Source of the DNA: Candidatus Saccharimonadota bacterium
GTDB taxonomy: Bacteria; Patescibacteriota; Gracilibacteria; BD1-5; UBA2023
DNA: 32,000 nt
Assembly: GCA_042852035.1 (NCBI GenBank)
Contig: BAAFHK010000002.1
Location: 120,001 to 152,000, forward strand
Direction of reading: 5' to 3'
A program made the translations under genes and the position numbers. Each line of letters opens with the position of its first letter. Within the stretch, counting starts at the first letter, position 1. The notes beneath the pieces are model-generated. The model did no database searches. It had not been told where the DNA came from and worked only from the letters and a program-made list of their open reading frames with translations. Below, piece by piece: positions 1-32,000 of the stretch.

Positions 1-3000
1 CATGGTGATGGGCATCTTGGATATCTGGTTTCTACATGGAATGATGGTATAACGGGTTATAATTTTTGAATCAAAGATTCTGATTATTCTTACCAGAGTC
101 GAGGAAAATACACAAGTTACATCCATACGGATAGGAAGCTCTATCTCCCATGAGAAAAAGTTCATATACATGCAATCCTTCGTGAAAATAAAGCATCTTT
201 AACGATTCCAACTACTCCTTTTATTGCAATACTTACCGACCCACTTGGGCGAGAGATACGTAGAGTTTCTGTCAAAACAAATGAGTATGGATCTTTCTCT
301 CTTGATTATGAGCTCCCAAAAGAGGCAACTCTCGGAATGTATAGCATCAACCTCATTACTCCGGATAATACAGAATATGTAGAAAACTCTTGGACGAATT
401 TTCAGGTTGAAGTCTTCAAAAATCCTACATTTACAGCTACGGTTGAGTTAAAGAGTGATGATTTAGAAAATGAAAGCGTAAAAAATCTCATGAAGGTCCC
501 GAATAATGATCCGTACAATCCATGGTATACTGATGCATATATTGGAAACTTTAGTATCGGGGGAATCGTAAAAGCCAAATACTATAATGGTGCAGAAATG
601 AGAAATACGAGCTTTACCTATCGTGTCTATAGAAGCGAATATTATCCTGATGATTATTGGGGGGATTGTTTTTGGTGATGTTACTGGGAGCCACCTCTAG
701 AGCTCTATAGCGAAGGTACTGGAAGTATTGATGGTGATGGCTATGGTGTTATGCGGATCCCAGTAGAATATAAATCATTTTATAGCGACTATAAGTATAC
801 CGTTGAAGTAACAATTAGGGATGCTCTTTCTTGAGAAGAGGTAACAACGCCTTGATCACTTATTGTGAAGCTTCCTTCGACCTATAAGGGATTCTCTCTC
901 GATAACCCTCTCGTATTTACTCCAAAAAAGAAAATCCTAAAAAATACTGAAATGCTTACGGGCGATTTTGCTCCGACTTATGGTAAGTGGGACCAAAGTC
1001 TTGTGAATAAGTATCAGTATGAGATATATAGAAAAGACTATGAAGAGTGATGGGTGGAAGATATTCGTATGGGAAAAACTCGTATAACGACAAGCGAAGA
1101 TGTCCTTATATCGAGTGGGGTTATCGTTAAAAAAGACTTTTCTATAAATATCCCAGCAGCAAAACCAGGAGAATACCACATAAAGGTTCGCCCTGCTTCT
1201 TGAGATGCTCCAGAATCGAGTATATCTGAGACGCTATTCTATATTTCATGAGACAATACAAGCATCAGAGATATGAATCTCAGAGTAATACCAGAAAAGA
1301 CGGTCTATCACAAGGATGAGACAGCGAGAGTTATGATTCAAGTGCCATTTACTGGTTCATATCTCCTTATTACTCAGGAGAAATGAGGTGTTATTCAGAA
1401 AGAATATCTTTACCTTTCGGGAAATACCCTTATGCGTGAGTATAAGGTAGATGATACGATGATTCCAAACTCGTATATATGAGTTGTGGCACTTCGTCCT
1501 TGAATTGGTTGAGATGATACAAGAGGATATGCAGTAGGCTATGGAGAAATTATTACCGATATTTCCGAGAAGAAATCTATCCTGACTATTACTCCAGATA
1601 AAGAGCGTTATAAGAATCGAGATACAGCGAATATTGATCTCACTCTCACAAATAGCTCTTGAAATCCTCTTATTGGGGAAGTGACAGTAATGGTCGTAGA
1701 TGAAAGTCTGATTCGTCTCCTGGGAAATGTCGACCTTGATATTATGCCAAAATTTTATCAAAAGTATCCATTTACCGTGCGTACAGCTCTTACAGCTATT
1801 GGTATCGAACGCTGACAGTTTCTCTCAAGAAAATGATCGAACGGAGGCTGAGGAAGCAAGTGATGAGATGGTTCAGAGATCTCAACTCGAACACTCTTCG
1901 AAAACACAGCCTACTATCATCCTGGAATTGTTACGGACATAAGTGGTAAGGCACGAGTTACCTTTACGCTTCCTGATAACATTACAAACTATCGTATTAT
2001 TGCTATTGCTAATACGAAGGATTCTCATTTTGGAGTAAAAGAGCGTACCATAGAGATTCGGAAGGACTATGTTGTTGAACCAAAACTCCCGATGATTCTA
2101 AGAACGGGAGATACTTTTACAACGATTGTAAGTGCATTTAATAATACGAATAAAATTACTGCTGCGGAAGTTGTTATGACTCTCGGGACAGGAACTTGAA
2201 AGATAGAGAAAAAATCTCCTCTTTCACTAGGTGTTGCGGAGAGAAAAAAGGTGGATTTTAAAATTACTCTTCCAGAAAATTGGAAATGAAGTGTTCCATA
2301 TACGATTCAACTGAAGGAAGGTGATAAGGTACTTGATGGAGTATCTTCAAGTATAAAAATAGCACCGCTTCCATTTCTTACAGATATAGTTCGCGATGTT
2401 CGAGTATTTTCTGGAACAACATTCTCTTACACTCTCCCAGAGATTAAAATATCTGATGCAGACAAGGCAAAGTCACGAGTTAGTATTATGGTAGCGAGCT
2501 CTTATGCCTCTGAATGGAAGAACTGACTGGATTCACTCATTACGTATCCATATGGTTGTATCGAACAGACAATTGCTTCTACACTTCCAAATCGAGTAGC
2601 TTTGAGTCTTACCTGAGTCGTATCATGAAATTTTGATACTCAAAAAGCTCGTGAAAATGTCGCAAATGGTCTCGCAAAGATAGTGCGAATGCAGCATGTA
2701 ACTGGTGGTTGGACATATTGGGAAGGGGATCAGAATGTAGAATCACATATTACTCCATATGTAGTTCGATCGCTCGTACTTTTCCGTGAGCTTTGAGAAA
2801 AAATTCCAGATGAGGTGTTTACCAATGCTGTGAGCTATATCATTGCTAATGAGTATGAATATCAAAAGGATATGGATACCTATGCGGAGGCGGTTTGGAC
2901 TCTTGCTCTTCTCAAAAATGAGAATGCTCTCAATTGGTGGAGTAAGGTAGATAGTTCAAAACTTTCACGTCACGGATACTTGGCATATCTTTGGGCATCA

Positions 3001-3960
3001 CAGAAGCTCGGTAAATACTCCCTTGAAAATGAAAAGATTTTTATGGATAAGCTTTCAACCTCAAATGAATCAAGTTGGTATTGGTCATCTCGATCTGATC
3101 AGGCTCTCTTTGTTCAGCTCCTTTTTGAACGAAACGAAAGGGAGAAGGCACTTCGTTATCTTGATCCACTCATGCGATATGCTAATTTTGATAGTTTCTA
3201 TGTTTCTACGCAGGAAAAGATACAAGTTCTTCTTGCTCTTCTTGGAGAGTCTCGAGGAATCCAGAAACTTAAGAATCCAGAAACAATAGCACTTCGAGGT
3301 GATACGATAATTTCTGATATTTCAGTTTCACCAGATAGATCTTCGAATACTATGGATACAAATCGAGAAAAAATAGGTCCTTCCTATAGCCTTAAACGAT
3401 CAAATGGTGCAACTCCTCTTATTGTTACTACTCGTATTCAAGATATTCCAAAGGATCTCTCAAAGCTTCCTGCTTATAGCACTGGTTGAATAAAAATCAC
3501 TCGCACGTTTGATCTTATCGATGAATCAAAGGGGCTTGATAAGAATAATAACTTTGTTTCCGTGACTCAGATTAAAGATTTCACCTTTCAAAAGGGGAAA
3601 CTCTATCGAGTAACACTCACGGCTTCGATAGATCGTAAAAGCGATGAATATTGGTATAATCTTGCTATCGAAGATTTCTTCCCAGGTGCATGGAGACCGA
3701 TTAATCAAAATTTCAAGACCGAATCAAGTCTTATGGATAATGTTCAGAATAATGAATATTGGTGGACATATACGGAATCAAAAGAAGATCGATTACTGGT
3801 ACATATGAATTATGGCTGGGGAAATACAAGAAAATATGTCTACTATTTTCGACCGGAGCTTGTAGGAAGTTATCTTTTGCCCCCTGCAACAACCTACTAT
3901 ATGTATAATCCTGATATTCATGCTTATACAGAGTATGCTCAGGTTAAAGTAGTAGAATAG
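1..3960 (+). CDS. Alpha-2-macroglobulin family protein, 5' partial (thioester-containing, YfhM-like)
   Basis: Frame 1 is open from position 1 to TAG 3958-3960 once TGA is read as Gly. It has the bait/MG-domain signature [14 protein letters not shown]. It has the A2M domain [41 protein letters not shown]. An intact thioester motif YPYGCIEQT is present (CIEQ at 2557-2568). The standard-code track breaks it into at least 6 pieces. Confidence 0.9.
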
Positions 3961-4516: not shown

Positions 4517-5068
4517 ATGAAATGACAGCTTTTAGAGGGCAAACATATCCGACTTCGTCTCATGTGTGAGGATGATTTTCCTTATCTAATCGAGGCAAAC
4601 CATGATCCAGATATAGAGCAACTCGCTGGATGAATTTATCCGATGTATGCAGAAGAACTTAAAGAATTCTATGAAAATGAACAGAAGGATGGCGCAATGT
4701 GTTTTATGATTGAAAATAAAAAAACATGAGAAATAATTGGAGAGGTTGGACTTCATGAGATTCGCCAATGAGATAAGACAGCTGAAGTGAGCATTACTAT
4801 TTTCAAAAAATTGAACCAGAATAAATGATATGGTTCAGACGCTCTGGATGCTCTTCTTCGATATGCATTTTATGGACTTTCTTTGCGAAAACTTATAGCA
4901 TGGATTTATGCTCCAAATGAAAGATCTATCGGGCTTTTTAAGAAATTCTGATTTAGCCTCTCAGGAAGTCTCAAGGCACATAGGCTGTATAGAGGGAGAT
5001 ATGAAGATACTCTTATTTATGAAAAATTTCGAAGTGAGACCTACGCTAATTTTTTAGGAGATGAATAA
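4517..5068 (+). CDS. GNAT family N-acetyltransferase (RimJ/RimL-like)
   Basis: 183 aa. The N-terminus LEGKHIRLRLMCEDDFPYL is typical of RimJ/L-type GNATs. The acetyl-CoA motif NQNK-[TGA=G]-YGSDAL is present, with 6 in-frame TGA. The stop overlaps the next start (ATGAATAA). Confidence 0.8.
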
Positions 5069-6053
5069 TTTAGCTGAATCTTCTTCATCTGTTACGGTTA
5101 TTCCTCTTGGAGATACGATATTTCGAGGAACTCTTATCTCTTATGAGCTCGCTCAAATAATCGAGTGATCAAAAGGAGATAATTCTATCCTATTTTTTTA
5201 TAATAGAAGATGATCTGGGAGAGCCTGGATATGTAAGGATTGTGGATATTTCTCGAAATGTCCAAATTGTGATATTGCTCTCGCATATCATGGATATCCT
5301 CATAAACAACTTGTTTGTCATCACTGTAATTTTCGTAGTGAAATAATTCTTTCCTGTCCTTTATGTAGAGGGGTTGAATTTCAGGAAGTTTGAATTGGAA
5401 TACAAAAGATAGTAAGCGATCTCGAAAGAAACTTTCCAAATCGAAAAATCCTTCGCATAGACTCTGATTCAAATGATAAAAAATCCGTTCTTCATAAAAA
5501 AATAGATTGATGTCAGCTCATCGTTTCGACCTATGCTGGGATTAGTCTTGTTCACTCAGAGAATGTAGGAGCAGTGGTATTTCTTCTTTTTGAATCGGAC
5601 TTAACACTTCCAGACTATCGTATGGAAGAGGATCTCTATCATACCCTTGAATATGCTAAAAAATCCTGAAAGGAAATGTATATTCAAACCTATGTCCCAG
5701 AACATCCACTTCTTACCACTCTTACAGAAGGGAATTATCGAGATTTTCTTCATTATATAAGCGAAGAGAGAAAAAAATTTTCATATCCTCCGTATGTTGA
5801 TTATGTAACTATTCGTATCCATGATGTTTCCAGGGATAAGCTTGAAAATATGAAAAATAAACTTATCAATAAGATAATCACCCTTCAGGATGGCACCAAT
5901 ATTGCCTTTTTTGATTATGGTGCAATCGAAAAATATCAATGAGAATGGGTAGTAAAAATATTTCTTAAGTGAAACAAAATAGAGAACTTCCTCAGTCAAT
6001 TTGAGGTTGAGCTGTTAAAAAATCGCAGCATTACCCTTGACTGGAACTCATAG
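5061..6053 (+). CDS. priA: PriA (primosomal protein N') C-terminal remnant: Cys-rich Zn region + C-terminal domain, no helicase lobe 1
   Basis: 330 aa, collinear with roughly the last 310 residues of E. coli PriA. It has FFYNRRGSGRAWICKDCGY and four CxxC pairs (CKDC, CPNC, CHHC, CPLC), then GIGIQKI, PEHPLL and YPPY. There is no Walker A/B region. Motif V/VI equivalents are degenerate (STYAGIS, EYAKKSGKE). Confidence 0.8.
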
Positions 6054-6055
6054 AT

Positions 6056-7747
6056 TTATACTGGAATATCATCTTTTTTGCTGATACTCCAAACAAGTAC
6101 CGATAAGATTACTATACCAAAAAGGATAAAAAACCCAGAGTAATTTACGATTCAAAGTATAACACCACCGAGGACTAATCCAATGACGTTCGCAGCATTC
6201 TGTAGGATTTTCATAGGTCATGCAGAAGCGTTAGAGTCAATCTCTTGAAGTCGCATAGTCTTCGCATATATTTTATTATAATTATCGAGAAATTGATTTT
6301 GTCAGAGGGCCATTCCACAGGCATACCCAACACTATTTATAATTGCGAGAGCAATAAGTACAATTGATCGTGGTCCAAATTCTGTTCCATATCATATAGA
6401 TACAAGTCACATACCGATAAGCGAGACACCAGAAAGTCAGAGTCAAAAGAATGCTACGGTTTTGATACCAATTTTATCCGCAAGTTTTCAGGCGATTTCT
6501 TGGAGTCAAAGCGCTGGTATAGCAATAAAAGCAAGGAGGATGTATGCTGTTTTTTCTGTGCCTATTTTTGCAAGGAATTCTATAAGAAATGTTGAGGCAA
6601 ATGTATCCCAAAATCAAAAAATAAGAACAAGAGACATAGTCCAGTATATTACCAAATATATTGGAGTATGGAGCATGATATTCTTAATAACTGCTGCTGT
6701 ATTTTTTGTTTCCAGGAGGAGCTCTTTCCATTTTAATGGGTTAGTCTCTTTTTGTTTTGGTTTAATAAAGATATATTTTGCTGACTCTACAACCTTCTGC
6801 AGATCGATGGCATTTATTTTCTCAGATATGTACTCAGCAACATTTTCCTTATTTAATTTTTTGATTCCAATAGTAAAAGAAGTTATATCAGATATCGAGA
6901 TACTTTCATCAGAATTATCAAAGAATCGGCTTGTAAAGAAGAGGAATCCTGCAATGATAATCCCAAGAACAATAACGGCAAACGTCGGATTGACCGAAAG
7001 AATAAAGCCTGAAAGAACAAGACCCATGAGAGATCCCAATCCATAAGTAATATTGTTTCTTGCAAGAATCTTTCCATATTCGCTTGGATGCGCATGGGAA
7101 AGTATATATCAATAGGTAGAGATATCATTAATTTCTTTTGTTAGACCATAACAAATCGATGCTATGACTATGAGGACCCAGTTGAGTGCATTATCAAAAA
7201 ACCATCCCCATATGGAGCTAAAACCATCAGGAATTATGGTTTTTCCAGTAACTTCAACCACGCTAAATACGTTGTATATAAAGTTAAAAAATATCCCGAC
7301 AGCTATTAATTGAGATATGGCCGCGATGATAAAAAGTTTTTTTGTTGAATAATATCTCTGAAGAATTCCAACAGGGATATCTAGGAGAAATGCAATCGCA
7401 TTAGCAATTCAAAGAAATATTCCTACAAGAGCTACCTTTTTCAGCTGAAAGGTAAAAAAGAATACCATAGAAAAGTGAAATATCATCCAAACAAATCCTT
7501 GGAATGCATTTGTAAGATAAAAATTTCTTAATTTATGTCCCTCAAAAGCATTATTTGCAGAAATAACAATAACATCTTCTAGATGTTCGGTCGCAGTTGT
7601 GATTCATTCCTCACTTCAGTTTTCTTCTCCTTTTTTCTTATCGGTACTCTCATAGGCTATCGTATCCTCATTTATCTTTAGAGGATCTGGGCTACTTGGG
7701 TTTGATGTGATTTCTTCCTGAGGGGAAGATTCATTTTCGAGAGGCAT
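6056..7747 (-). CDS. Polytopic membrane protein, probable MFS-type transporter with long central loop
   Basis: 563 codons open in code 25. I checked every tta/cta in the interval and none is in frame. It has an acidic N-terminus, then hydrophobic helices. An MFS motif-A-like stretch PVGILQRYYSTKKLFII is present. A soluble insert of about 90 aa separates two hydrophobic halves. TAA stop at 6056-6058. Confidence 0.55.
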
Positions 7748-22963: not shown

Positions 22964-24609
22964 ATGAAGTATACCTTTCTTGCTATATCATTTTTTTGGA
23001 TATCTTGAGTATCAGCATTGGAGAGATTTGATTCATCCTGTTATCGCGAAGTGGCTACAATTGATACGAATTCTTGAGTTTCATCGGTTCAAGTACAAAA
23101 TACTACTGATGATATTTTTTTTAGTACCACTTTTTGAGATATCCTTCCTTCAAGGTTAGAAAATACAAAAAAAATCCACCCATTCAATATACCTCAAAAG
23201 ATTTTGTTGATATCCCACTTCTTGATGATAGTGATCCTTATACCTGAATTGAAATTGATCCAACACTTTTTTTGAAGGGTGAAGTGAGTTACGTTTTTGA
23301 TTTAGGAAAAATATATACTCGTTGACAAATAAAACCAGAAATAGGATTTGTGACGGATAGAAATATCTCAGTAAGTCTATCTATTGATGGAAACTTTTTT
23401 ATCCCAGTAACCCTTGGGAGTATAGGAAACTTTGACTTTCGTTTCATAAAAATAGGATTTTCTGGGAATTGAAAACAAACAGAAATCACAAGATTCCATA
23501 CACTCAATTTTTTTCAAAATATACAAAATACTTACGTATTCTCTTCACCTGGTTGAGAGGTAAGGATATTTCGGTGATATGCATGTACTTCCCAGGGTCA
23601 TCAGTACTCTATGTTAGATCGCCCGAAACTTCCATATACGGAGATTATCCCAGATAAAAGCTACACACCTATTTTTTTACCAAATCCTCTTTATAAAGAT
23701 GATGGTGATAGTGATGGATTTGAGAATATTCGTGATAATTGTCCTATCGTAAATAACCCAGATCAAAATGACAGAAATAATGACGGTATCTGAGATGCTT
23801 GTGATGATTCTGATAGGGATAATAGGTATGGATTTGATGACAACTGTCCTACTATAAGTAATCCAGATCAAGCTGATAAAAATGCGAATAAAATCGGAGA
23901 TGCCTGTGAATTTGATACCGATAAGGATGGCGTTTTCGATGATACTGATAATGCCATTCATATGAAAAATCCAGATCAAGCTGATATTGATAGGGATGGA
24001 ATTGGTGATGTGATGGATAATTGTAATCTCTATAATCCAGATCAATTAGATTTGGATAAAAATGGAAGAGGTGATGTGTGCGATAAGAATGAAGAATATC
24101 GCAGAACAAATGATTTCGATAAAGATACAATTTTGGATTATCTCGATAACTGCAGTAAAATGAGTAATCAGAATCAAGCTGATTCTGATATTGATGGCAT
24201 CGGTGACGTATGTGATAACTGTAAAGAGTTAAAAAATCCAGAACAATCAGATATTGATGTGAATGGAGTAGGTGATAGTTGTGAAGATGTTGATCATGAT
24301 GGAGTAGTATGATGGAGAGATAATTGTCCGAGTATCTCGAATCCCGATCAAAAAGACAGTGATAATAATAGGGTGGGAGATATCTGTAGTGATATTGATG
24401 GAGATTGAAAATATGATGAGGTTGATAATTGTCCAACGGTTTTTAATGATACTCAATATGATATCGATAAAGATGGAAAGTGAGATGTCTGTGATGCCGA
24501 TGATAATAGGTTTATCGAATCAAATAAATATGTCTTTATGGCTCTTGTTGGTATTTTTGGGCTTATTTTTATCGGAGGTATTATTGTGCTTATTCGTAAA
24601 CTTCAGTAA
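22964..24609 (+). CDS. Surface protein: signal peptide + discoidin-like domain + thrombospondin type 3 Ca-binding repeats + C-terminal TM anchor; reading frame broken at an A8 tract
   Basis: Frame 2 (22964-23305) encodes MKYTFLAISFFWISGVSA... and dead-ends at TAG 23303-23305. Frame 1 is open from 23125 to TAA 24607-24609. It encodes VSYVFDLGKIY...SLSIDGNFF (F5/8-type-C-like), then about 14 DxDxDGxGDxCD / DNCPxxxNPDQ units. It ends in YVFMALVGIFGLIFIGGIIVLI. A -1 shift in A8 (23167-23174) joins the two frames. Confidence 0.75.
23167..23174 (+). repeat. Homopolymeric A8 tract at the frame junction (A_AAA_AAA slippery heptamer in the 0 frame)
   Basis: The sequence reads aat-aca-aaa-aaa-atc in the signal-peptide frame. 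One extra A, or a -1 slip, gives aaa-aaa-aat-cca-ccc, which is the downstream frame. Confidence 0.9.
23698..24507 (+). repeat. Tandem coding repeats (thrombospondin type 3 / Asp-rich Ca-binding loops)
   Basis: Recurrent nucleotide units are present. For example, aatccagatcaagctgat occurs at about 23862 and again at about 23968. They encode NPDQADxDxDGIGDxCDNC. This explains the long spurious antisense ORFs. Confidence 0.8.
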
Positions 24610-24620
24610 TTTTTCAACCT

Positions 24621-27600
24621 ATGACACAAGTTTCTCTTCTATCTTTTCTCAGACGCATCTCGTGGCTCATATCCTTTCTTCTTGGTGCTTTTTCTGCTCT
24701 CCTCCTTTCAGATTTATCTTCTTGAAGTTATACGACTGGTGCTGAGAATTTCTTTGAATGGGGATGGATATGGGGAGTTATATTTATGCTTCTTTTTAAG
24801 AAATTTCTTCTCTCAGAAAATATTATATCAGCTATTTCTTTTGAGCCAGTACCTCTAAAGAATGACATTTGAGTATCTTCACCGCATCAAAATATTGATG
24901 TTCAATCATTTCCACTAATACAGTTGAGTGAAATATCTGATATGAGAGGTAATTTTAAAGAAAATATCCAAGCCGAATCGAAACAAGAAATAGAAAAAAA
25001 ACAGGTGACACCGGTGATTCCTCCTCCACCGGAAGTAAAGAAACCAAATTGGATTGTTGCTTTCTTTTCCGATCGACCGCTTGCAAAGATTTGAGGTATT
25101 ATCCTCTTTTTGGCTGCATTTTTCTTTCTCTCACTTGTATGGTCAATTGTTGGCTCTATAGGAAAAGTTATTATAGGTCTTATTTTCGGTTTCTCTCTCT
25201 ATGTTATTTGAGTTTGGATGGATAAAAAATGACATATTACAGAGTCTCGTACTCTTTTATGAGTTGGTATCGCTATAAATACTCTTACTATTCTTTCTTG
25301 AAGATGGATTATTGGGGATACATCAGGAAGTATTTTTTCAGATACGCTTACTCTTATCTTTCTTATTCTAAATACTCTTTTTGCTGTAGCTACTGGACTC
25401 GTATATAACTCGAGAACTTTTCTTATTTTCTCATTTGTTTTTGCTTATTTTATACCGTTCATTGTTCGTTCAGAATCAGATAGCTCCATCCTTATAATGT
25501 TCTATACGCTCACAATTTCTCTCGGTTGATATTTGCTAACCTGGCTTTTTCTACAGAGAAATGAGCGTATTGATGATATGAAGTGGCTATTTCGAACAAT
25601 TATTATAGGAAGCCTTATGCTTCTTGGATTAACGGGTTTTGGTGTAGAGAGTGTAATGGAGCTTATTTTGATATCTATTCTGAGCTCTATTCTTACAACC
25701 ACAGGAATATTTATCTCAAGAAAGACTGAACTTCGTGACGAATCAGTTCCAAGTCTACTCATTTCTGCTTATATAATTCTTATATGTTCAATCTTCTGAA
25801 TCTGAGATAAAGAACAGGCAACAATAATCGTTAGTTTTATTTTCACTCTTCCGATTTTGGTTTATACAGCTCTATTTATGGTGCGAGTGAATCTTGTAAT
25901 ATATACTTGGATTTTGCTTATTCCGTTGTGAGTTGCATTAATTCTTTTTTGAGTATTTGGAATTCCTTCGTTAGTGCTCATTCTTGTCCCTATTGTTCTT
26001 ATATACGGATTGGCGTGATTATTCCTTGTTTCTTTTATGACAGAAGTTCTGCGCTATGTCTTTTTCCTAGTTATTAGTGCTTTTATTTTTATTTGTTCTG
26101 TTGCCATAGATGGATCTCACTATGAGATTTCTCTATCAAGCCGTTGGGTTATAAGTATTTCTTCACTCGGATTTTTTCTCCTTTCACTCTGGTCGAGTTA
26201 CAAATATAAATTAATCCATCTTTCACTCATTGCTCTTATATCTTCCTCAATTATATTTACGACTTCTCTTATTCCAGAATGGGAAGCATCATGGATGATG
26301 TATATTCTTTTCCTTGCAGTGACCTTTTCTTATCCTTTTTTCGTTAGAAAATCAATCAAAGAGCAATTTTCCTCATTTATCAGCTATCAAGTAGTGGCAA
26401 ATCTTTTTATGATAGGAGAGCTATTTTACCTCGGGAGAAATATCTGGTTTACAAGAGATGGGAGTTCACTAGTTACCCTTGGGATAATTGTTTTTCTTCT
26501 TTCAATAGCATCACTCTTCTACTCATTTATGCTTATTCGAGTCACTTTGAGTAATGGAAGCCTTTCATCTCTGAGTTCTGATCTAAAAAGGAATGCTACG
26601 ACACTGCTCTGAATCCCGCTATCCCTTTTTACTCTTGCAATTGCTGTGACTTTCTCAGAAAGCCCACTTGTGGTATCGACGGCATGGGTAGTTGAATCAG
26701 TAGTGCTTGCATATTATTCTTCAAAACAGAGGAATCAATGAATGCTTATAGGAACAATTATATTAGCAAGCATATGAATATTGAGGCTTATACCATTTTT
26801 TGATAGTATATACACTGGAGAGTATCTTGCTCTTGTTCCCATAACTATCATTGCACTGAGTCTATATTGTACACTACTATTTATTGTTGATAGAGAAAAA
26901 AATCCACTTGCAAATGTTTATGATTTTATTCATATCTTTGGCATAAGTATGGTTGCTTATGCTCTTATGGAAATTATTCCTCATACCCAGACTGGATGGA
27001 GCCTACTTTGACTTAATATATTTCTTCTTCTTTCAACTTGGTTTTATACAAAAGTATCGAGCAAGATTATCTCCTTGTGGATGATATTTTTATCTCTTAT
27101 TATTTACTTTTATCACCTAGTTCGAGTTGAGGAACTCAGTATGAATCTTGGACCAGTATTTATACAACTTACAGCTCTTTCAATTGGTACATTTGCCGTT
27201 TGGTATATGAAATCAAAAAACCAATTCTGAAAGTATGCATTTATTTATGCTTTCATTATGTTTCTTTTGATTACGTCTATTTATGTAAATCAACTGACGA
27301 ATAATATTTTTGCCGTAACCATCTACCTTACCATTATTGCTACGATTTATCTCCTATTTTGAATCAATAATAATGTTGCAAAGTTTAGGACTATCTGACT
27401 TTATATCGGAAGCGGGGTACTTATAAAAATTCTGTTTTATGATATTTGGGCCTGAGTTGATAATCTCATCATTCGTGTTGTAGCTCTCATGATTACATGA
27501 GGTATTATGATTGCTATTTCTCAACTTTATGGAAGGAGAGTAAACCGACCATGGAATGAGGAATTCGCTCTTTCTAACTTTGCGAATAATTCCCAAAGTG

Positions 27601-27968
27601 CAATGATCATTAATGATGAAATGCAATGAGAGCATCCATCTTCTCCTGATGACATGCCATTCGATGAAAGTATTTCAAATGATCTAAAAGAGTTTGATAT
27701 AAGTCATATTTCTTCGATTGAGCTTCAGAATTTATCTTGAGAAATAATTCTTCTCTCTCGTAGGGCAGGAATAATTCGTGTTGCAAACTACATTGTAAAA
27801 CATCTCGGAAAGACAGAATTTGTACCAAATGAACTTGAAGCAGCTCTAAAAAACCTTATTCCTCACATACAGAGCTCTCTCCCCAAAAAGGAACTTGATA
27901 CTATCTTATTAAAAATTCATAATTGGGTACTTCTATGATGAAAAATAGTTATAAAAGAAAAAATATAA
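24621..27968 (+). CDS. Large polytopic membrane protein, DUF2339-like
   Basis: 1115 aa, open in frame 0 with TGA=Gly. It has dozens of hydrophobic helices. The N-terminal motif is FFSDRPLAKI-G-GIILFLAAFFFLSL. The C-terminal motif is FRTI-G-LYIGSGVLIKILFYDIWA. A soluble tail of about 110 aa follows. TAA stop at 27966-27968. The start lies 11 nt after the upstream stop. Confidence 0.8.
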
Positions 27969-28381
27969 AGTGGTTTTATTTCCTTCTTTCCTGATTCAGG
28001 TATTTTTTCCTTTTACTTTGAGTCGGATTTTTTCTCCATTTTCTTTTACTTACTCTAAGTATTGCTTTTACAAAATCTAATACAGATGTAGAGAGAAAAT
28101 ATGCGTATACAACTGATGGATGTAGTATGTTTATCGACGGGGACTACAGGGAATGCTGTGAGGCTCATGATCGTGCATATTGGGAAGGTGGGCGACTTTA
28201 TAAGAAGCTTGTAGCTGATGCTCTTCTCTATGCTTGCATAGCAGAGAAGTGACATAATGTTCGAGAAAATTTTATGTTTCCTGCTGTACTCATTGGTGGA
28301 AATCCAGGTTTTCCTACGAAATTTCGTTGGGGTTATGGTTACCCATATCCATATTATGATATTCGATGAGTTCAGAAATAA
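27935..28381 (+). CDS. Small membrane-anchored protein with secretory-PLA2-like CCxxHDxxY motif
   Basis: 148 aa from ATG 27935, overlapping the DUF2339 3' end by 34 nt. It has an N-terminal TM (WFYFLLSGFRYFFLLLGVGFFLHFLLL). It then reads YTTDGCSMFIDGDYRECCEAHDRAYWEGG, which resembles the sPLA2 catalytic His-Asp network CCxxHDxCY. TAA stop. Confidence 0.5.
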
Positions 28382-28483: not shown

Positions 28484-31108
28484 ATGTATCTTAAGGGTAT
28501 ATTTGCTGTTGCTCGTTTTTTCTTACGCCTCCGTTACCGAGTGCGGATTGAGGGAATGAAGGAATTTGATCATCCTGGTCCAATTATTGTATTTCCGAAT
28601 CATCCAGCACTTGTTGATCCGATGATTATGATTACCGAGATTGGGAGAAAAAAAATACTTTCACCCGTAATGACCGAAACGTATATAAATACTCCGTGAC
28701 TCGGTCCAATTTTGCATGCTATGAAGACGGTTCCAGTAGGTGATCTAGCGCGATGATGAAACATTGATGATGTAGAAAAGGCTTTCGAAGGTATCCGAAA
28801 GGGAATTGAAAACAAGCAAAATATTCTCATCTATCCATCATGACATATTTATGTTCAACCATTTGAACATATTGTTGGGAAAAAAATGGCTTTTGAAATT
28901 GTTTCTCGACTCCCTGACGATGCTAAGATTATTGTGGCTCGTACGAAATGACTTTGGGGAAGCATATGGGGAAAGGCTTATACTGGAGAATCACCAAAAC
29001 TCATGAAGGTCCTCACAAAGTCTTTGTGGTATATTTTCTCTAATGGGATATTCTTTGTGCCCAAACGGGAAGTTACTATAGAGTACAAGGATATGACAGA
29101 ACAACTCCGAATGTGGAAAAAGGAGGGGTTAGATGCATTCAATCAGAATCTTCAAGACTATTATAATCATTCCTGAAATGAAGAATGTCGTTTCATTAAA
29201 CATTATTTTTACCATAATGATGTCCTAGGAAAGAAAGAGCCTGAGGCAATCGCGTGATCCATTGCTGAGCTTGAGAAAAAAACAGAGGTGAATATAGATA
29301 TTCCTGCTGAAACCCTAAAAGATATTAGGAAAAAAGTTGCCACAATAAAAAAGATTGATTTGAAAGATATAAAAGATGAGTCGAATCTTGTTCTTGAGCT
29401 CCATTGTGATTCACTTGATATGGCAGAAATCAAATCTGTAATACAGAAGGATTATCCGAATTCTTCGAACCCCCCGATTGGTTTACTTAAGACTCCTAAG
29501 GATTTAGCATATATGTCTCTCTGAGTTTCGCTCTGAGAAGAGAAGCTCCCTCGTTGCACTTTTCAGCCAAGAACTGAAACCAATATAGTCTATAAGTATA
29601 GTGAGGGGGATACGATTCTTTCTGAAGCAAAAAAGGTTTTTAAGAGTGAAAAAAATAGTCCTTTTCTCTATGATGCTATACTCTGAGAAATGACGAGAGA
29701 TGAATTTTTACTACGTTCATATGTTATATCAACCTATCTTTCTCGTATAAAAGATGACCGAATTGGTATCATGATACCAGCACTATCTTCTACTTCTTTG
29801 CTTCTTTTTTGAGTTTATCTCTCCTGAAAGCTCCCTGTTATGCTTAATTGGACGGTGTGAGAAAAGTCATTTGCGCATTGTATGAATTTTGCCGGACTTG
29901 AAGTCATACTCACGAGCAAAAAGTTTTATGAAAAAATCCAATCTCCTTGGCTTGCTGCTTTTGAATGAAAAATGGTATTTATTGAGGATATTATAAAGGA
30001 TCTATCATTTTCAATGAAAGGTATAGCTGTTATTAAAAAGTTTTTTTTCTTACTCCCAAAGAAGAGGGAGGATGCGGTAATGCTTTTTACATCATGAAGC
30101 GAATCTCTTCCTAAGGCAATTCTTCTTACTCATAAGAACATTCTTTGTGATATTGAGTGAGCTCTTGCTCTTGTTCCTTTTAAGAAAAATGAGACAATTA
30201 TTTGATTCCTCCCACCATTTCATAGTTTTGGTTTTACAATAAATACGATTTTTCCATTCGTAGCACCAGTGCAAGCTGCCTATACACCAGACCCTGGTGA
30301 TGCTCGAACTATAGGAAAGATTCTTTTACACACTCAAGCGAGTATTGTATCAGCAACTCCAACATTTCTTCGTATGATTCTTTCTGGAAATGAGGCTCAC
30401 TCACTCACTTCACTCAAATTTGCTTTTGTGTGAGCAGAGAAATGTAACGATGAAGTATTTTCTCTTTTTCGAAAGAAGTGCCCTGAAGCTATTATTCTTG
30501 AATGATATGGTATTACTGAGTGTAGTCCTATAGTGACGGTGAATCCTCTTTCAAAACAACTGAAATGATCAGCAGGAAAATTTCTTCCTACAATAATACC
30601 AATGATTCGATCACTTGATAATAAAGAGTCTCTCAAAGCATGAGAACAATGAATGATTTACATTACGGGCCCAAGTATATTCTGATGATATATTGACCCA
30701 AATTTGGAAAGTCCTTTTGATGAATTTGATTGAAAAAAATGGTATAAAACTTGAGATCTTGGTTATATAGATGAAGAATGATTTCTCTTTATTACTGGCA
30801 GACTCAAGCGGTTTGTGAAAATTGCCTGAGAAATGATATCACTTCCTTTTATCGAGGGTATTCTTCTTGAAAAATATGGAAATCCTGAGGTTACAACTCT
30901 TGCAATTGAGGCAAAAGAAGAAAATGGGAATGTCACAATTGTTGCATTCACAAATTTTGAAGAAAGTGTTGATGTAATCAATGATTACATACATACCCAT
31001 GGTGCATCAAATCTTGTAAAAATTGCAAGAGTAGAGAAGCTAAATGCTATTCCTATTCTTTGAACGGGAAAGACCGATTATAAGCAGTTAAAATCACTGA
31101 TTCAGTAG
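28484..31108 (+). CDS. Tri-domain fusion: lysophospholipid acyltransferase (PlsC-like) + acyl-carrier domain + acyl-AMP/ACP ligase (Aas-like)
   Basis: 874 aa. The acyltransferase domain has FPNHPALVDP (HX4D) and IYPS-G-HI. The carrier domain has LELHCDSLDMAEIKSVI (DSL phosphopantetheine site). The adenylation domain has [64 protein letters not shown] and L-G-TGKTDYK. TAG stop. Confidence 0.88.
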
Positions 31109-31186: not shown

Positions 31187-32000
31187 ATGCAAAACAAACC
31201 TCATAATCCTATAATCAGGAATCTTACACGTATCTCACGAGAATCATCAAAAAGTTTCGAAGATTTTTTTGATTGGAATCAGTATAAGAAAGATGATGGA
31301 CAATACTACATGCCCCCAGAATTACTCTCGATATATGGATCAGAGTTATATGAAAAACTTACTGAGAAACAACTCCGAGAGCTCACCCGAATCGAAGCCA
31401 TACAAACACTTTATCTCTATGCCTATGCAGAAAGTGTGATGTGTTACTATATGGCACGCCATCTGGTAAAATCAGACTTTTGAAGTGAAGAACATGCTTT
31501 TATCCTCAGGGAACAAATCGAAGAGTATCGGCATCAGGATATGTTTCTCCGTGCATTAGAAATCCTTGGGAAAGATTATAAACCAATGTCAAAATTCACG
31601 AAATGGTGGACAGGATTTGAGGCAATAGTACTTCCGCCAAAGATTTTCTTTCTGCTTCAAATTGCAATTGAACTTGTAACACGTGAGATTTGAAGACTTA
31701 CATTTCCAGATGAGAGAATCCACCCGCTTGTCCGAGATCTCTGTATGATTCATGAAAGGGAAGAGGCTCGACACGTTACCTTTTCTAATGCATATATAGA
31801 AAATGCCTATAAAAGAGATGGATTTTTTATGAGAACAATTGCTGGTATATGCATAGCTCTCGATATAGCGTTTCTCCACCATTTCTACGTTTACCCCTGA
31901 ATGTATAAAAAGGCCTGAATCTCCGAAGATCTCAAATATTACAAAACAGCGAAGAAATTCATTTTAAGAAGTGAAGTGAAAAATATGATGACAGGAAGTG
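31187..32000 (+). CDS. Ferritin-like diiron oxygenase (AurF / desaturase-like), 3' partial
   Basis: Open to the window end. It has two E...ExxH-type ligand motifs, LREQIEEYRHQDMF and MIHEREEARHVTF, in a helical context. This matches AurF-family / diiron-carboxylate enzymes. Confidence 0.65.

What the first reader, a model, noticed from the sequence alone, without database searches (positions are those of the whole stretch)
28484..31108. Aas-like enzyme with an embedded acyl-carrier domain (PlsC - ACP - AMP-ligase in one 874-aa chain)
E. coli Aas couples an acyltransferase and an acyl-ACP synthetase but uses free ACP. Here a DSL-containing carrier domain (LELHCDSLDMAEIKSVI, around 29390-29440) is inserted between the HX4D acyltransferase and the adenylation domain. 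This would make fatty-acid activation and transfer independent of a separate acpP. That is a sensible adaptation in a genome that may lack FASII. The adenylation core motif is unusual: [10 protein letters not shown] rather than TSGTTGxPKG.
Basis: partly seen in the sequence, partly recalled or inferred. Interest (0 to 1): 0.65.

Follow-up and report, generated by a model that had tools for sequence, protein, structure and literature searches.

The report
Aas-like lipid enzyme with built-in carrier
This gene from a tiny, recoded (TGA = glycine) candidate-phyla bacterium encodes one protein that most likely activates a scavenged fatty acid, holds it on its own carrier domain and attaches it to a membrane lipid, which offers a testable route by which such bacteria could rebuild membranes from borrowed lipids.

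Summary
Under the standard code the ORF is broken by 29 in-frame TGA codons. These sit where 50 standard-code homologues have Gly (69% vs 6% background, never Trp). Read that way, 28484-31108 (+) is an intact 874-aa protein with three domains: a PlsC-type acyltransferase (HX4D; PlsC fold), a carrier domain (residues ~270-348) and an Aas-type acyl-ACP-synthetase domain.

The window's carrier domain alone scores just under the Pfam PP-binding threshold. The family profile matches solved ACPs at E=7e-13, with DSL aligned on the ACP DSL. Asp309-Ser310 is invariant in 116/116 homologues, and Ser310 starts helix II in the model. E. coli Aas has no such segment.

The 'unusual' [10 protein letters not shown] motif is the Aas-family hallmark (E. 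coli: TSGSEGHPKG).

The architecture is not unique: at least 557 GTDB species encode it. In Bacteroidota it usually sits beside an lplT homologue. In CPR relatives it sits beside an Sfp-type phosphopantetheinyl transferase and an MFS transporter.

It is best read as an uncharacterised Aas variant with a cis carrier, probably for lysophospholipid/fatty-acid salvage. No PPTase, acpP or LplT-like gene was found in this window, and the acyl acceptor is not known.

The parts
28484..31108 (+). Complete ORF of 874 aa under genetic code 25 (29 in-frame TGA = Gly; stop TAG at 31106-31108): PlsC - carrier domain - acyl-ACP-synthetase fusion
   Evidence: full-length homologues at 40-84% identity
28484..29167 (+). 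N-terminal glycerolipid-type (PlsC/AGPAT) acyltransferase domain, residues ~1-228 (Pfam match 28538-28912)
   Evidence: PF01553 E 1.4e-7, 31.8 bits > cutoff 23. The five best Foldseek hits for the AF2 domain model (pLDDT 81) are T. maritima PlsC 5kym (chain A, E 1.5e-5; chain B), squash GPAT, LpxM and human GPAT1.
28601..28618 (+). HX4D catalytic motif (H40-P-A-L-V-D45)
   Evidence: H40 is present in 109/109 aligned homologues; position 45 is D in 105 and E in 4. It aligns with NHVSFID of E. coli Aas.
29291..29527 (+). Embedded acyl-carrier (PP-binding) domain, residues ~270-348, a helical bundle
   Evidence: Family profile vs PDB ACPs E 7e-13, E. coli AcpP 2e-9. An HMM built only from distant, mostly Bacteroidota, domains hits residues 265-349 at E 2.5e-24. 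AF2 helices at 275-289, 310-323, 332-334 and 338-346. dN/dS 0.078 vs the closest relative.
29411..29413 (+). Codon of Ser310 in the DSL motif: the predicted 4'-phosphopantetheine attachment site
   Evidence: D309 and S310 are invariant in 116/116 homologues. The motif aligns on the DSL of solved ACPs. Ser310 is the first residue of helix II in the model.
29594..31105 (+). C-terminal Aas-type adenylate-forming (acyl-ACP synthetase) domain, residues ~371-874
   Evidence: PF00501 E 4e-45. NCBIfam best matches are the AAS parts of PRK08633 (E 3e-122), AasC PRK06334 (E 4e-101) and Aas PRK08043 (E 2e-73). 30% identity to E. coli Aas residues 253-711. Foldseek hits to ANL enzymes include AasS-ACP 8i8d.
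30089..30118 (+). Adenylation P-loop motif [10 protein letters not shown] (the Aas-family form of TSGTTGxPKG)
   Evidence: T536, S537, S539, P543 and K544 are invariant in 116 homologues; position 538 is G or TGA-derived W, and E540 is in 115/116. E. coli Aas has TSGSEGHPKG.
31070..31072 (+). Lys863 (GTGKTDYK), the conserved A10 catalytic lysine of adenylate-forming enzymes
   Evidence: K863 is present in 114/114 aligned homologues.
27935..28381 (+). Context, tentative: 148-aa membrane-anchored protein with an invariant DGC...CCxxHDxxY...AD motif; candidate secreted-type phospholipase A2, 102 nt upstream on the same strand
   Evidence: Conserved in L004 and L016. The family alignment gives the invariant residues. 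The profile's only two PDB hits are microbial PLA2s (8k1w, 4aup), aligned on the catalytic motif but at weak E of ~0.3. No Pfam hit.
31187..31999 (+). Context: AurF-like di-iron protein gene, 78 nt downstream on the same strand, truncated by the window end; its link to the fusion gene is seen only in this sub-clade
   Evidence: PF11583 E 1.6e-36. The orthologue is in the same position in L004 at 85% identity. It is absent next to the gene in the other 83 loci.

Best explanation
The gene encodes a self-contained Aas-type enzyme. (1) The C-terminal domain adenylates a free, probably scavenged, long-chain fatty acid using ATP. (2) It transfers the acyl group to the phosphopantetheine thiol on Ser310 of the protein's own carrier domain, where E. 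coli Aas would use free holo-ACP. (3) The carrier domain delivers the acyl thioester to the N-terminal HX4D PlsC-type domain, which esterifies it to a glycerolipid acceptor, most likely a lysophospholipid. A separately encoded Sfp-type phosphopantetheinyl transferase must first convert the carrier domain to its holo form. Shown here: the three domains, their catalytic motifs, the invariant serine, purifying selection, and the conserved partner genes in relatives. Inferred: phosphopantetheinylation, the in-cis acyl relay, the fatty-acid substrate and the identity of the acceptor.
For: Domain identities. Homology to E. coli Aas at both ends, with about 165 extra residues where the carrier domain sits. 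The carrier-domain HMM finds nothing in E. coli Aas. Catalytic residues conserved in 116 homologues (H40/D45, D309-S310, TSGSExxPK, GYGxTE, YxTGD, K863). All three domains are under similar strong purifying selection against the 84%-identical relative (dN/dS 0.05-0.08). Ser310 is at the N-terminus of helix II in a model with mean pLDDT 83. In 17 CPR loci an ACPS-superfamily PPTase lies within a few genes, at +1 or +2 in 12 of them (PF01648, 34.6 bits > cutoff 25; Sfp-type by NCBIfam), usually followed by an MFS transporter. No such adjacent PPTase appears in the 51 Bacteroidota-type loci. In those, 23 loci have at position -1 (28 within the locus) a clear LplT homologue (blastp 9e-22 to E. coli LplT; NCBIfam LplT 5e-29; PRK08633 MFS part 1e-73), mirroring the E. 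coli aas-lplT operon. No stand-alone ACP lies within +/-10 kb in any of the 85 loci. Published context: E. coli Aas uses free holo-ACP to re-acylate lysophospholipids flipped in by LplT (PMC11416262). Absconditabacteria lack lipid synthesis (PMC8080830). CPR membranes are rich in lysolipids, and ACP-dependent enzymes were not found in the CPR genomes of that study (PMC7242380).
Against: No PPTase, acpP or LplT-like gene was found in this 32-kb window, and no PPTase homologue could be tied to the window's 289,822-bp source contig. In this sub-clade the neighbours differ (AurF-like here; FabH-like, a second AMP-ligase and a reductase-like gene in L004), which could point to a different lipid product. 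The window's own carrier domain is just under the Pfam threshold. The CPR MFS neighbour is only weakly LplT-like. Sequence alone cannot distinguish ACP-loading from CoA-ligating adenylating enzymes (stated in PMC12086093). The acceptor specificity of the PlsC domain cannot be read from sequence. The protein scores far below the NCBIfam cutoffs for Aas and AasC.
Confidence: 0.68

Rival explanations
1. The chemistry is the same (adenylation, cis carrier, PlsC transfer), but the acceptor is glycerol-3-phosphate or lysophosphatidic acid. The enzyme would then be the entry point for de novo phospholipid assembly from scavenged fatty acids, not a lysophospholipid repair or re-acylation enzyme.
For: The best structural matches of the N-terminal domain are an LPA acyltransferase (PlsC 5kym) and G3P acyltransferases (1k30, 8e4y). 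CPR genomes are reported to lack the PlsX/ACP machinery needed to feed PlsY/PlsC (PMC7242380). No LplT homologue was found in this window.
Against: The adenylating domain and the motif set are specifically Aas-like. Bacteroidota homologues are paired with lplT. Absconditabacteria are described as lacking phospholipid synthesis altogether (PMC8080830).
Confidence: 0.15
2. In this sub-clade the protein is a loading and off-loading module of a specialised lipid pathway. A fatty acid loaded on the cis carrier would be modified while tethered, for example by the adjacent AurF-like di-iron enzyme, or extended by the FabH-like enzyme seen in the closest relative, before the acyltransferase places it on a lipid.
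For: An AurF-like di-iron gene follows the fusion gene here, and also in L004. There it is followed by FabH-like, two membrane proteins, a second AMP-ligase, an epimerase/reductase-like gene and an FAD-oxidase-like gene. Carrier-tethered substrates are typical for such tailoring enzymes (general knowledge). FAAL-ACP loading didomains are well known (PMC11837247).
Against: The adjacency is confined to the window and one relative out of 85 loci. Relatives at 60-67% identity have PPTase and MFS neighbours instead. The domain order (carrier before the adenylating domain) and the PlsC domain are conserved across phyla regardless of neighbours. No function is known for this AurF-like protein.
Confidence: 0.1
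3. The carrier domain is a structural relic that is not phosphopantetheinylated. The enzyme would use free ACP or CoA like other Aas/FadD-type enzymes.
For: The window's domain scores below the Pfam PP-binding cutoff. No PPTase was found in the window or linked to its contig.
Against: Asp-Ser is invariant in 116/116 homologues across phyla. dN/dS is 0.078. The profile match to true ACPs is strong, with the serine in register. A dedicated PPTase is adjacent in 17 CPR loci.
Confidence: 0.05

Closest known systems
E. coli Aas (bifunctional 2-acylglycerophosphoethanolamine acyltransferase / acyl-ACP synthetase) of the LplT/Aas lysophospholipid-remodelling system
   Same: Both have an N-terminal HX4D PlsC-type domain followed by a C-terminal acyl-ACP-synthetase domain. 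The AAS domains are 30% identical, and both carry the family-specific motifs TSGSExxPK and GRxKRFxKIAGEMxSL. Bacteroidota members of the new family sit beside an lplT homologue, as aas does in E. coli.
   Different: E. coli Aas is 719 aa, has no carrier domain and uses free holo-ACP (PMC11416262). This protein has about 165 extra residues, including an ACP-like domain with an invariant DSL serine. It scores far below the NCBIfam Aas cutoff (248 vs 886 bits). No lplT was found in this window.
LplT-PlsC-AAS triple fusions (NCBIfam PRK08633 / PRK06814, ~1140 aa 'acyl-[ACP]--phospholipid O-acyltransferase')
   Same: This is the best NCBIfam match for the adenylating domain (E 3e-122). The lplT-like neighbour of Bacteroidota homologues matches the MFS part of the same model at E 1e-73. 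It is another way of fusing the components of the same system.
   Different: Those proteins fuse the transporter and not the carrier. Judged by length, 735 residues remain after the MFS part, similar to E. coli Aas, so there is no room for a carrier domain. Their function is also uncharacterised (PMC11416262).
Soluble acyl-ACP synthetases AasS (Vibrio harveyi) and AasC (Chlamydia)
   Same: Same adenylate-forming chemistry that loads exogenous fatty acids onto a phosphopantetheine thiol. AasC model PRK06334 matches at E 4e-101. The AasS-acyl-ACP complex 8i8d is among the structural matches.
   Different: They are stand-alone enzymes that act on free ACP feeding FASII or PlsC. They have no acyltransferase domain and no carrier domain.
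FAAL-ACP didomain loading modules of polyketide/lipopeptide pathways
   Same: An adenylating domain is fused to its cognate carrier domain, so the acyl group is loaded in cis (PMC11837247).
   Different: The order there is FAAL then ACP, and the acyl chain is passed to KS or C domains of assembly lines. Here the carrier precedes the adenylating domain and follows a PlsC-type glycerolipid acyltransferase. The adenylating domain is of the Aas type.

Membership tests
Aas family (bifunctional acyltransferase / acyl-ACP synthetase) | N-terminal PlsC-type acyltransferase with HX4D | tested here: met
   PF01553 at 31.8 bits > cutoff 23. H40 is in 109/109 aligned homologues. PlsC is the top fold match. 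The region aligns to the Aas N-terminus.
Aas family (bifunctional acyltransferase / acyl-ACP synthetase) | C-terminal Aas-type adenylating domain with TSGSExxPK and GRxKRFxKIAGEMxSL | tested here: met
   30% identity over 473 aligned columns to E. coli Aas, E 5e-68, with both motifs shared. Conserved across the family.
Aas family (bifunctional acyltransferase / acyl-ACP synthetase) | Scores above the curated NCBIfam equivalog cutoff (PRK08043, PRK08633, PRK06814 or PRK06334) | tested here: not met
   248 vs 886, 409 vs 1221, 331 vs 1349 and 339 vs 847 bits. It is therefore not an equivalog of any named model.
Aas family (bifunctional acyltransferase / acyl-ACP synthetase) | Two-domain protein that uses free holo-ACP as acyl carrier | tested here: not met
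   A third, carrier domain is inserted. Use of free ACP cannot be tested here.
Aas family (bifunctional acyltransferase / acyl-ACP synthetase) | Genetic linkage to the lysophospholipid flippase gene lplT | tested here: inconclusive
   Met for Bacteroidota homologues: a clear LplT homologue is at -1 in 23 loci and within the locus in 28. CPR relatives have an MFS neighbour that is only weakly LplT-like. No LplT-like gene is in this window; the MFS gene at 6056-7747 does not match.
Aas family (bifunctional acyltransferase / acyl-ACP synthetase) | ATP-dependent acylation of lysophospholipids | not testable with these tools
   Needs an enzyme assay.
Acyl/peptidyl carrier domains (Pfam PP-binding, PF00550) | Pfam gathering threshold reached | tested here: inconclusive
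   The window sequence scores 14.9 bits in the full protein and 20.1 bits as an excised domain, vs a cutoff of 20.8. 29/42 family members hit PF00550 at E<=0.01, best 3e-13. 34 of the 120 best homologues carry a precomputed PF00550 hit.
Acyl/peptidyl carrier domains (Pfam PP-binding, PF00550) | Homology to experimentally solved ACPs, with the DSL serine in register | tested here: met
   Profile E 7e-13 (3gzl) and 2e-9 (E. coli AcpP), with DSL aligned on DSL.
Acyl/peptidyl carrier domains (Pfam PP-binding, PF00550) | Conserved serine at the N-terminus of helix II of a helical bundle | tested here: met
   S310 is invariant in 116/116 homologues. Helix II spans 310-323 in the AF2 model.
Acyl/peptidyl carrier domains (Pfam PP-binding, PF00550) | A phosphopantetheinyl transferase is available, and the serine is modified | tested here: inconclusive
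   An Sfp-type PPTase is adjacent in 17 CPR loci. None is in this window or traceable to its contig. The modification itself cannot be tested here.
ANL adenylate-forming superfamily (PF00501) | AMP-binding domain with P-loop, GYGxTE, YxTGD, hinge and A10 lysine | tested here: met
   E 4e-45. Motifs conserved. Foldseek E down to 4e-34 against 4CL, luciferase, MenE, DltA and AasS.
FAAL-ACP loading didomain of PKS/NRPS pathways | Order adenylating domain then carrier, with a downstream KS or C domain partner | tested here: not met
   The carrier lies upstream of the adenylating domain, and no KS or C domain is in the protein or the window. A FabH-like gene occurs only in relative L004.

The most novel reading that the evidence does not exclude
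In TGA-recoded CPR bacteria (Gracilibacteria/Absconditabacteria), which are reported to lack fatty-acid, phospholipid and ACP machinery, this tri-domain enzyme would be the central and perhaps only acyl-carrier-dependent route for building diacyl membrane lipids from host-derived lysolipids and fatty acids. Its dedicated Sfp-type PPTase, an MFS importer and, in this sub-clade, a candidate secreted phospholipase A2 encoded just upstream would complete a compact, self-sufficient lipid-scavenging module underlying the epibiotic or predatory lifestyle. The fused carrier may be the only phosphopantetheinylated protein in the cell.
Probability: 0.3. Interest if true: 0.78.

Novelty: new variant of a known kind. 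Interest (0 to 1): 0.58.

Why it matters
How CPR/Patescibacteria obtain and remodel membrane lipids is an open question. Published surveys report no lipid-synthesis pathways and no ACP-dependent enzymes, yet these cells have ordinary acyl-glycerolipid membranes enriched in lysolipids (PMC7242380, PMC8080830). An Aas-type enzyme that carries its own ACP, next to its own PPTase and a transporter in many relatives, gives a concrete mechanism that can be tested biochemically. It also identifies a third, unstudied architecture of the LplT/Aas membrane-repair system. That architecture is present in hundreds of species, including cultured Marinilabiliales in which genetics is feasible. A single-chain fatty-acid-to-phospholipid enzyme that needs no host ACP could also be useful for lipid engineering.

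Tried and rejected
1. Pseudogene or fragmented gene. Under table 11 the ORF is in pieces. Rejected because TGA is sense across the window and falls on conserved Gly columns.

2. TGA = Trp (code 4, as used in several database translations of homologues). Rejected: 0% Trp and 69% Gly at those columns.

3. Looking up the window protein's own contig for more flank: not on record.

4. Searching for the window organism's PPTase. tblastn and an HMM of the CPR PPTase family found nothing in the window. The homologue search gave no hit on a 289,822-bp contig. The search is word-limited, so absence is not shown.

5. Foldseek with the full-length model returned only ANL enzymes and said nothing about the other two domains. 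The N-terminal domain was therefore modelled separately.

6. The AurF-like neighbour as a conserved partner. Rejected as a general feature because it appears only in the window and L004. It has no PDB or NCBIfam match.

7. The window's MFS gene at 6056-7747 as LplT: no similarity to E. coli LplT.

8. Single-sequence Pfam and PDB searches of the small upstream ORF gave nothing. Only the family profile gave weak PLA2 hits.

9. Eight full-text literature searches and six papers read in part found no description of a PlsC-ACP-AAS enzyme. The library is incomplete, so prior description cannot be excluded.

10. The promoter/terminator scan gave counts at or below the shuffle expectation and is not used as evidence.
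Full report
**1. Is the feature there?**

Under the standard bacterial code no long ORF exists at 28484-31108; the frame is broken into fragments of at most 78 aa. Across the whole window, treating TGA as a sense codon raises the total length of ORFs of 100 aa or more from 6,111 to 21,553 aa. Reassigning TAG or TAA gives much smaller gains.

In the claimed frame there are 29 in-frame TGA codons and a TAG stop. I aligned the protein to 50 homologues from standard-code genomes. At the 29 TGA columns the majority residue is Gly in 22 columns. Pooled, Gly is 69% against a background of 6.2%, and Trp is 0%. Several TGAs fall on invariant glycines of adenylation motifs: TS-G-SE, E-G-YGITE, YKT-G-D and G-T-G-K.

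The organism therefore uses code 25 (TGA = Gly), the code of Gracilibacteria and Absconditabacteria (SR1). The closest genome-database relatives are Gracilibacteria MAGs at up to 67% identity. Read this way, the ORF is an intact 874-aa protein whose start, length and end match full-length homologues.

**2. The three domains**

*Acyltransferase.*
- Pfam Acyltransferase matches residues 19-143 at 31.8 bits, above the cutoff of 23.
- H40 of HX4D is present in all 109 aligned homologues; position 45 is D in 105 and E in 4. A YP[SQA]G block is also conserved.
- An AlphaFold2 model of residues 1-262 (pLDDT 81, pTM 0.82) has five best PDB matches, all glycerolipid-type acyltransferases: T. maritima PlsC chain A (E 1.5e-5), squash G3P acyltransferase, PlsC chain B, LpxM and human GPAT1. 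TM-scores are modest (0.40-0.53).

*Adenylating domain.*
- Pfam AMP-binding matches at E 4e-45.
- The best NCBIfam models are the acyl-ACP-synthetase parts of PRK08633 (3e-122), chlamydial AasC (4e-101), PRK06814 and E. coli-type Aas (2e-73). All are far below the curated full-length cutoffs.
- Residues 422-873 are 30% identical to E. coli Aas 253-711 (E 5e-68).
T536, S537, S539, P543 and K544 are invariant in 116 homologues; position 538 is G (or W where databases mistranslate TGA), and E540 is in 115/116. It is the family hallmark and not an oddity.
- The A10 lysine (K863) and the hinge [16 protein letters not shown] (E. coli: GRAKRFAKIAGEMVSL) are also conserved.

*Carrier domain.*
- In the full protein, Pfam PP-binding scores only 14.9 bits (E 0.033). 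The excised domain scores 20.1 bits against a cutoff of 20.8.
- A profile of residues 262-352 from 42 diverse homologues matches solved ACPs at E 7e-13 (Plasmodium ACP) and 2e-9 (E. coli AcpP). The family DSL is aligned on the ACP DSL.
- 29 of the 42 members individually hit PF00550, best 3e-13.
- An HMM built only from the distant, mostly Bacteroidota, domains finds the window protein at 265-349 with E 2.5e-24.
- D309 and S310 are invariant in 116/116 full-length homologues.
- In the full-length AlphaFold2 model (pLDDT 83, pTM 0.65) the region forms helices at 275-289, 310-323, 332-334 and 338-346. Ser310 is the first residue of helix II, which is the standard carrier-protein geometry.
- Against the 84%-identical relative, dN/dS is 0.078 for the carrier region and 0.066 for the whole gene. 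Synonymous sites are near saturation, so the ratios are approximate.
- E. coli Aas has about 165 fewer residues between its two domains, and the carrier HMM gives no real hit on it (0.5 bits).

The carrier domain is therefore real and is an insertion relative to classical Aas.

**3. How common is it?**

It is not rare.
- The protein search returned 895 homologues at E <= 1e-10, from a capped candidate list. The 120 best are mostly full-length proteins of about 870-915 aa, and 34 of them carry precomputed PF00550 + PF00501 + PF01553 hits.
- JGI's automatic names for some members already include 'acyl carrier protein'.
- A scan of one genome per GTDB species found at least 557 loci. They come from Gracilibacteria, Absconditabacterales/SR1 (including human oral taxon HOT-345 and Vampirococcus lugosii), Peribacteria, a Moranbacteria MAG, a Chlorobiota MAG and many Bacteroidota. 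The Bacteroidota are chiefly Marinilabiliales and include cultured Carboxylicivirga, Saccharicrinis, Mangrovibacterium, Labilibacter and Breznakibacter.
- A neighbour-joining tree separates a code-25 CPR clade, which contains the window, from Bacteroidota plus the standard-code Peribacteria. This suggests long residence in both lineages and no recent transfer.
- All 85 loci examined contain the carrier domain inside the gene.

**4. Genomic context**

I called ORFs in all 85 loci, using code 25 wherever the target gene had at least 3 in-frame TGAs, and clustered the neighbours.

*Bacteroidota-type loci.* A 412-aa MFS gene lies immediately upstream in 23 loci and within the locus in 28. A different 437-aa MFS gene is adjacent in 11 more. 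The 412-aa family is a clear LplT homologue:
- 28% identity over about 370 residues to E. coli LplT (E 9e-22), and cluster HMM vs E. coli LplT at 3e-31;
- NCBIfam LplT at 5e-29, and the MFS part of the LplT-PlsC-AAS model PRK08633 at 1e-73.

This mirrors the E. coli aas-lplT operon. In one genome the downstream gene is an MFS-acyltransferase fusion.

*CPR loci.* A protein of about 190 aa recurs within a few genes of the fusion gene in 17 loci, at +1 or +2 in 12 of them. Thirteen of the loci are code-25; the others are three Peribacteria and one Moranbacteria. It is a 4'-phosphopantetheinyl transferase:
- PF01648 at 34.6 bits, above the cutoff of 25;
- GIDIE and WTAKEAxxK motifs;
- Sfp-type by NCBIfam (AusB 7e-12, AcpT, HetI).

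It is usually followed by a 393-aa MFS transporter that is only weakly LplT-like. No such adjacent PPTase was seen in the Bacteroidota-type loci. A PPTase kept beside the gene in very small genomes is strong circumstantial evidence that the fused carrier is its substrate.

*This window.* The window belongs to a sub-clade whose context differs. Upstream, on the same strand, are a thrombospondin-type-3 repeat protein, a 1115-aa DUF2339 membrane protein and a 148-aa ORF. Downstream is an AurF-like di-iron gene, cut by the window end. The 84%-identical relative L004 has the same arrangement, and after the AurF-like gene it continues with a FabH-like gene, two membrane proteins, a second AMP-ligase, an epimerase/reductase-like gene and an FAD-oxidase-like gene.

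The window contains no PPTase, acpP or LplT-like gene. I could not locate the organism's PPTase. None of the 28 hits to the CPR PPTase family lies on a contig of 289,822 bp, the length reported for the window protein's contig. Some do share contig lengths with other fusion-gene homologues.

**5. Mechanism**

The best-supported reading is a self-contained Aas.
1. The C-terminal domain adenylates a free fatty acid.
2. The acyl group is passed to the phosphopantetheine arm on Ser310 of the protein's own carrier domain.
3. The HX4D domain transfers it to a glycerolipid acceptor.

In E. coli these steps use free holo-ACP, and the acceptor is a lysophospholipid flipped inward by LplT (PMC11416262). 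The lplT linkage in Bacteroidota argues for the same acceptor class there.

For the CPR lineages, published work says they lack lipid synthesis (PMC8080830). They have acyl-glycerolipid membranes unusually rich in lysolipids, probably acquire lipids from other cells, and showed no ACP-producing or ACP-requiring enzymes in the genomes surveyed (PMC7242380). A carrier-containing Aas with its own PPTase and transporter fits that picture and qualifies the last statement for these lineages.

What is shown: domain identities, catalytic residues, conservation, selection and gene linkage. What is inferred: the post-translational modification, the in-cis relay, the substrate and the acceptor. Sequence cannot separate ACP-loading from CoA-ligating adenylating enzymes (PMC12086093).

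Three rivals remain:
- G3P or LPA as the acceptor, i.e. de novo assembly;
- a specialised lipid pathway involving the AurF-like and FabH-like neighbours in this sub-clade;
- a vestigial carrier domain. This is the least likely, given the invariant Asp-Ser and the adjacent PPTases.

**6. Comparison with known systems, and novelty**

The protein works like Aas and shares its two catalytic domains and signature motifs. It is not an equivalog of any curated Aas, AasC or LplT-Aas model, and it departs from the defining two-domain, free-ACP design. FAAL-ACP didomains are known in natural-product pathways, but with the opposite domain order and different downstream partners (PMC11837247).

Eight full-text searches and six papers, including the 2024 LplT/Aas study and a 2025 FAAL review, gave no description of a PlsC-ACP-AAS enzyme. 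Automatic annotation has noticed the domains.

I therefore class it as a new, uncharacterised variant of a known kind. It is widespread and not unique to this genome. It needs three corrections: the alternative genetic code, the ordinary nature of the P-loop motif, and the fact that the fusion is not specific to FASII-less genomes.

**7. Side observation bearing on mechanism**

The 148-aa ORF directly upstream (27935-28381) has an N-terminal hydrophobic segment. Its small family, Gracilibacteria only, has the invariant pattern DGC...D...CCxxHDxxY...G...AD...C...RWG. A profile of the family has only two PDB hits among 177,635 sequences. Both are microbial secreted phospholipases A2 (8k1w; 4aup, group XIII), aligned on the DGCS...C-x-HD-x2-Y catalytic segment, but at weak E-values of 0.26 and 0.34.

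If it is a PLA2, it would produce a lysophospholipid and a free fatty acid, the two proposed substrates of the fusion enzyme. This is a lead and not a finding.

Noticed in passing
window 1-32000 (whole window): The whole window is recoded. TGA is a sense codon (Gly, code 25) in essentially every gene. Under the standard code the longest ORF is 259 aa; with TGA as sense it is 1,319 aa. G+C is about 33-40%. Many database homologues are mistranslated with Trp at these positions.
   Followed up: yes
window 27935-28381 (+): A 148-aa ORF lies 102 nt upstream of the fusion gene. It has an N-terminal hydrophobic segment and an invariant DGC...CCxxHDxxY...AD motif. Its family profile hits only two PDB entries, both microbial secreted phospholipases A2, at weak E (~0.3). 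It has no Pfam family, and all 10 database homologues are 'hypothetical' and, where named, from Gracilibacteria.
   Followed up: partly
window 31187-31999 (+), truncated; L004 8905-9828: An AurF-like di-iron protein (PF11583, E 1.6e-36) lies directly downstream. It is conserved only in the closest relative and has no PDB or NCBIfam match. Its function here is unknown. It could act on a carrier-tethered acyl chain.
   Followed up: partly
L004 9860-15780 (closest relative, beyond the window's end): After the AurF-like gene, the relative has a run of lipid-type genes: FabH-like KAS III, two polytopic membrane proteins, a second AMP-ligase (489 aa), an epimerase/NAD_binding_4-like protein and an FAD-binding oxidase-like protein. 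This is unexpected in a lineage said to lack fatty-acid synthesis. It probably also lies just beyond the window.
   Followed up: no
L001 13935-14495, plus 16 other CPR loci (e.g. L011, L016, L067, L078): An Sfp-type 4'-phosphopantetheinyl transferase of about 190 aa lies next to the fusion gene, usually followed by a 393-aa MFS transporter. JGI annotates the L001 copy as 'hypothetical protein'. In L001 a Peptidase_C92 (permuted papain-like) gene sits between the fusion gene and the PPTase.
   Followed up: yes
L005 10852-12726: In one Bacteroidota genome the gene after the fusion gene encodes an MFS (LplT-like) domain fused to a PlsC-type acyltransferase (624 aa) with no adenylating domain. It might use the neighbour's acyl-carrier domain in trans.
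   Followed up: no
window 23611-27968 (+): A thrombospondin-type-3 repeat protein (332 aa) and a 1115-aa DUF2339 polytopic membrane protein form a conserved pair upstream of the fusion gene. The DUF2339 protein is found in seven other code-25 CPR loci and the repeat protein in five of those (L004, L011, L015, L030, L068).
   Followed up: partly
window 337-3960 (+): A 1207-aa bacterial alpha-2-macroglobulin-like protein (A2M, bait region, TED and MG10 domains). The Vampirococcus paper notes similar large protease-inhibitor proteins as possible defence against host proteases.
   Followed up: no
window 5061-6053 (+): A 330-aa ORF whose only Pfam hit is the PriA Cys-rich zinc ribbon. It looks like a PriA C-terminal portion without the helicase core, either a split or degenerate priA or a start-site problem.
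   Followed up: no
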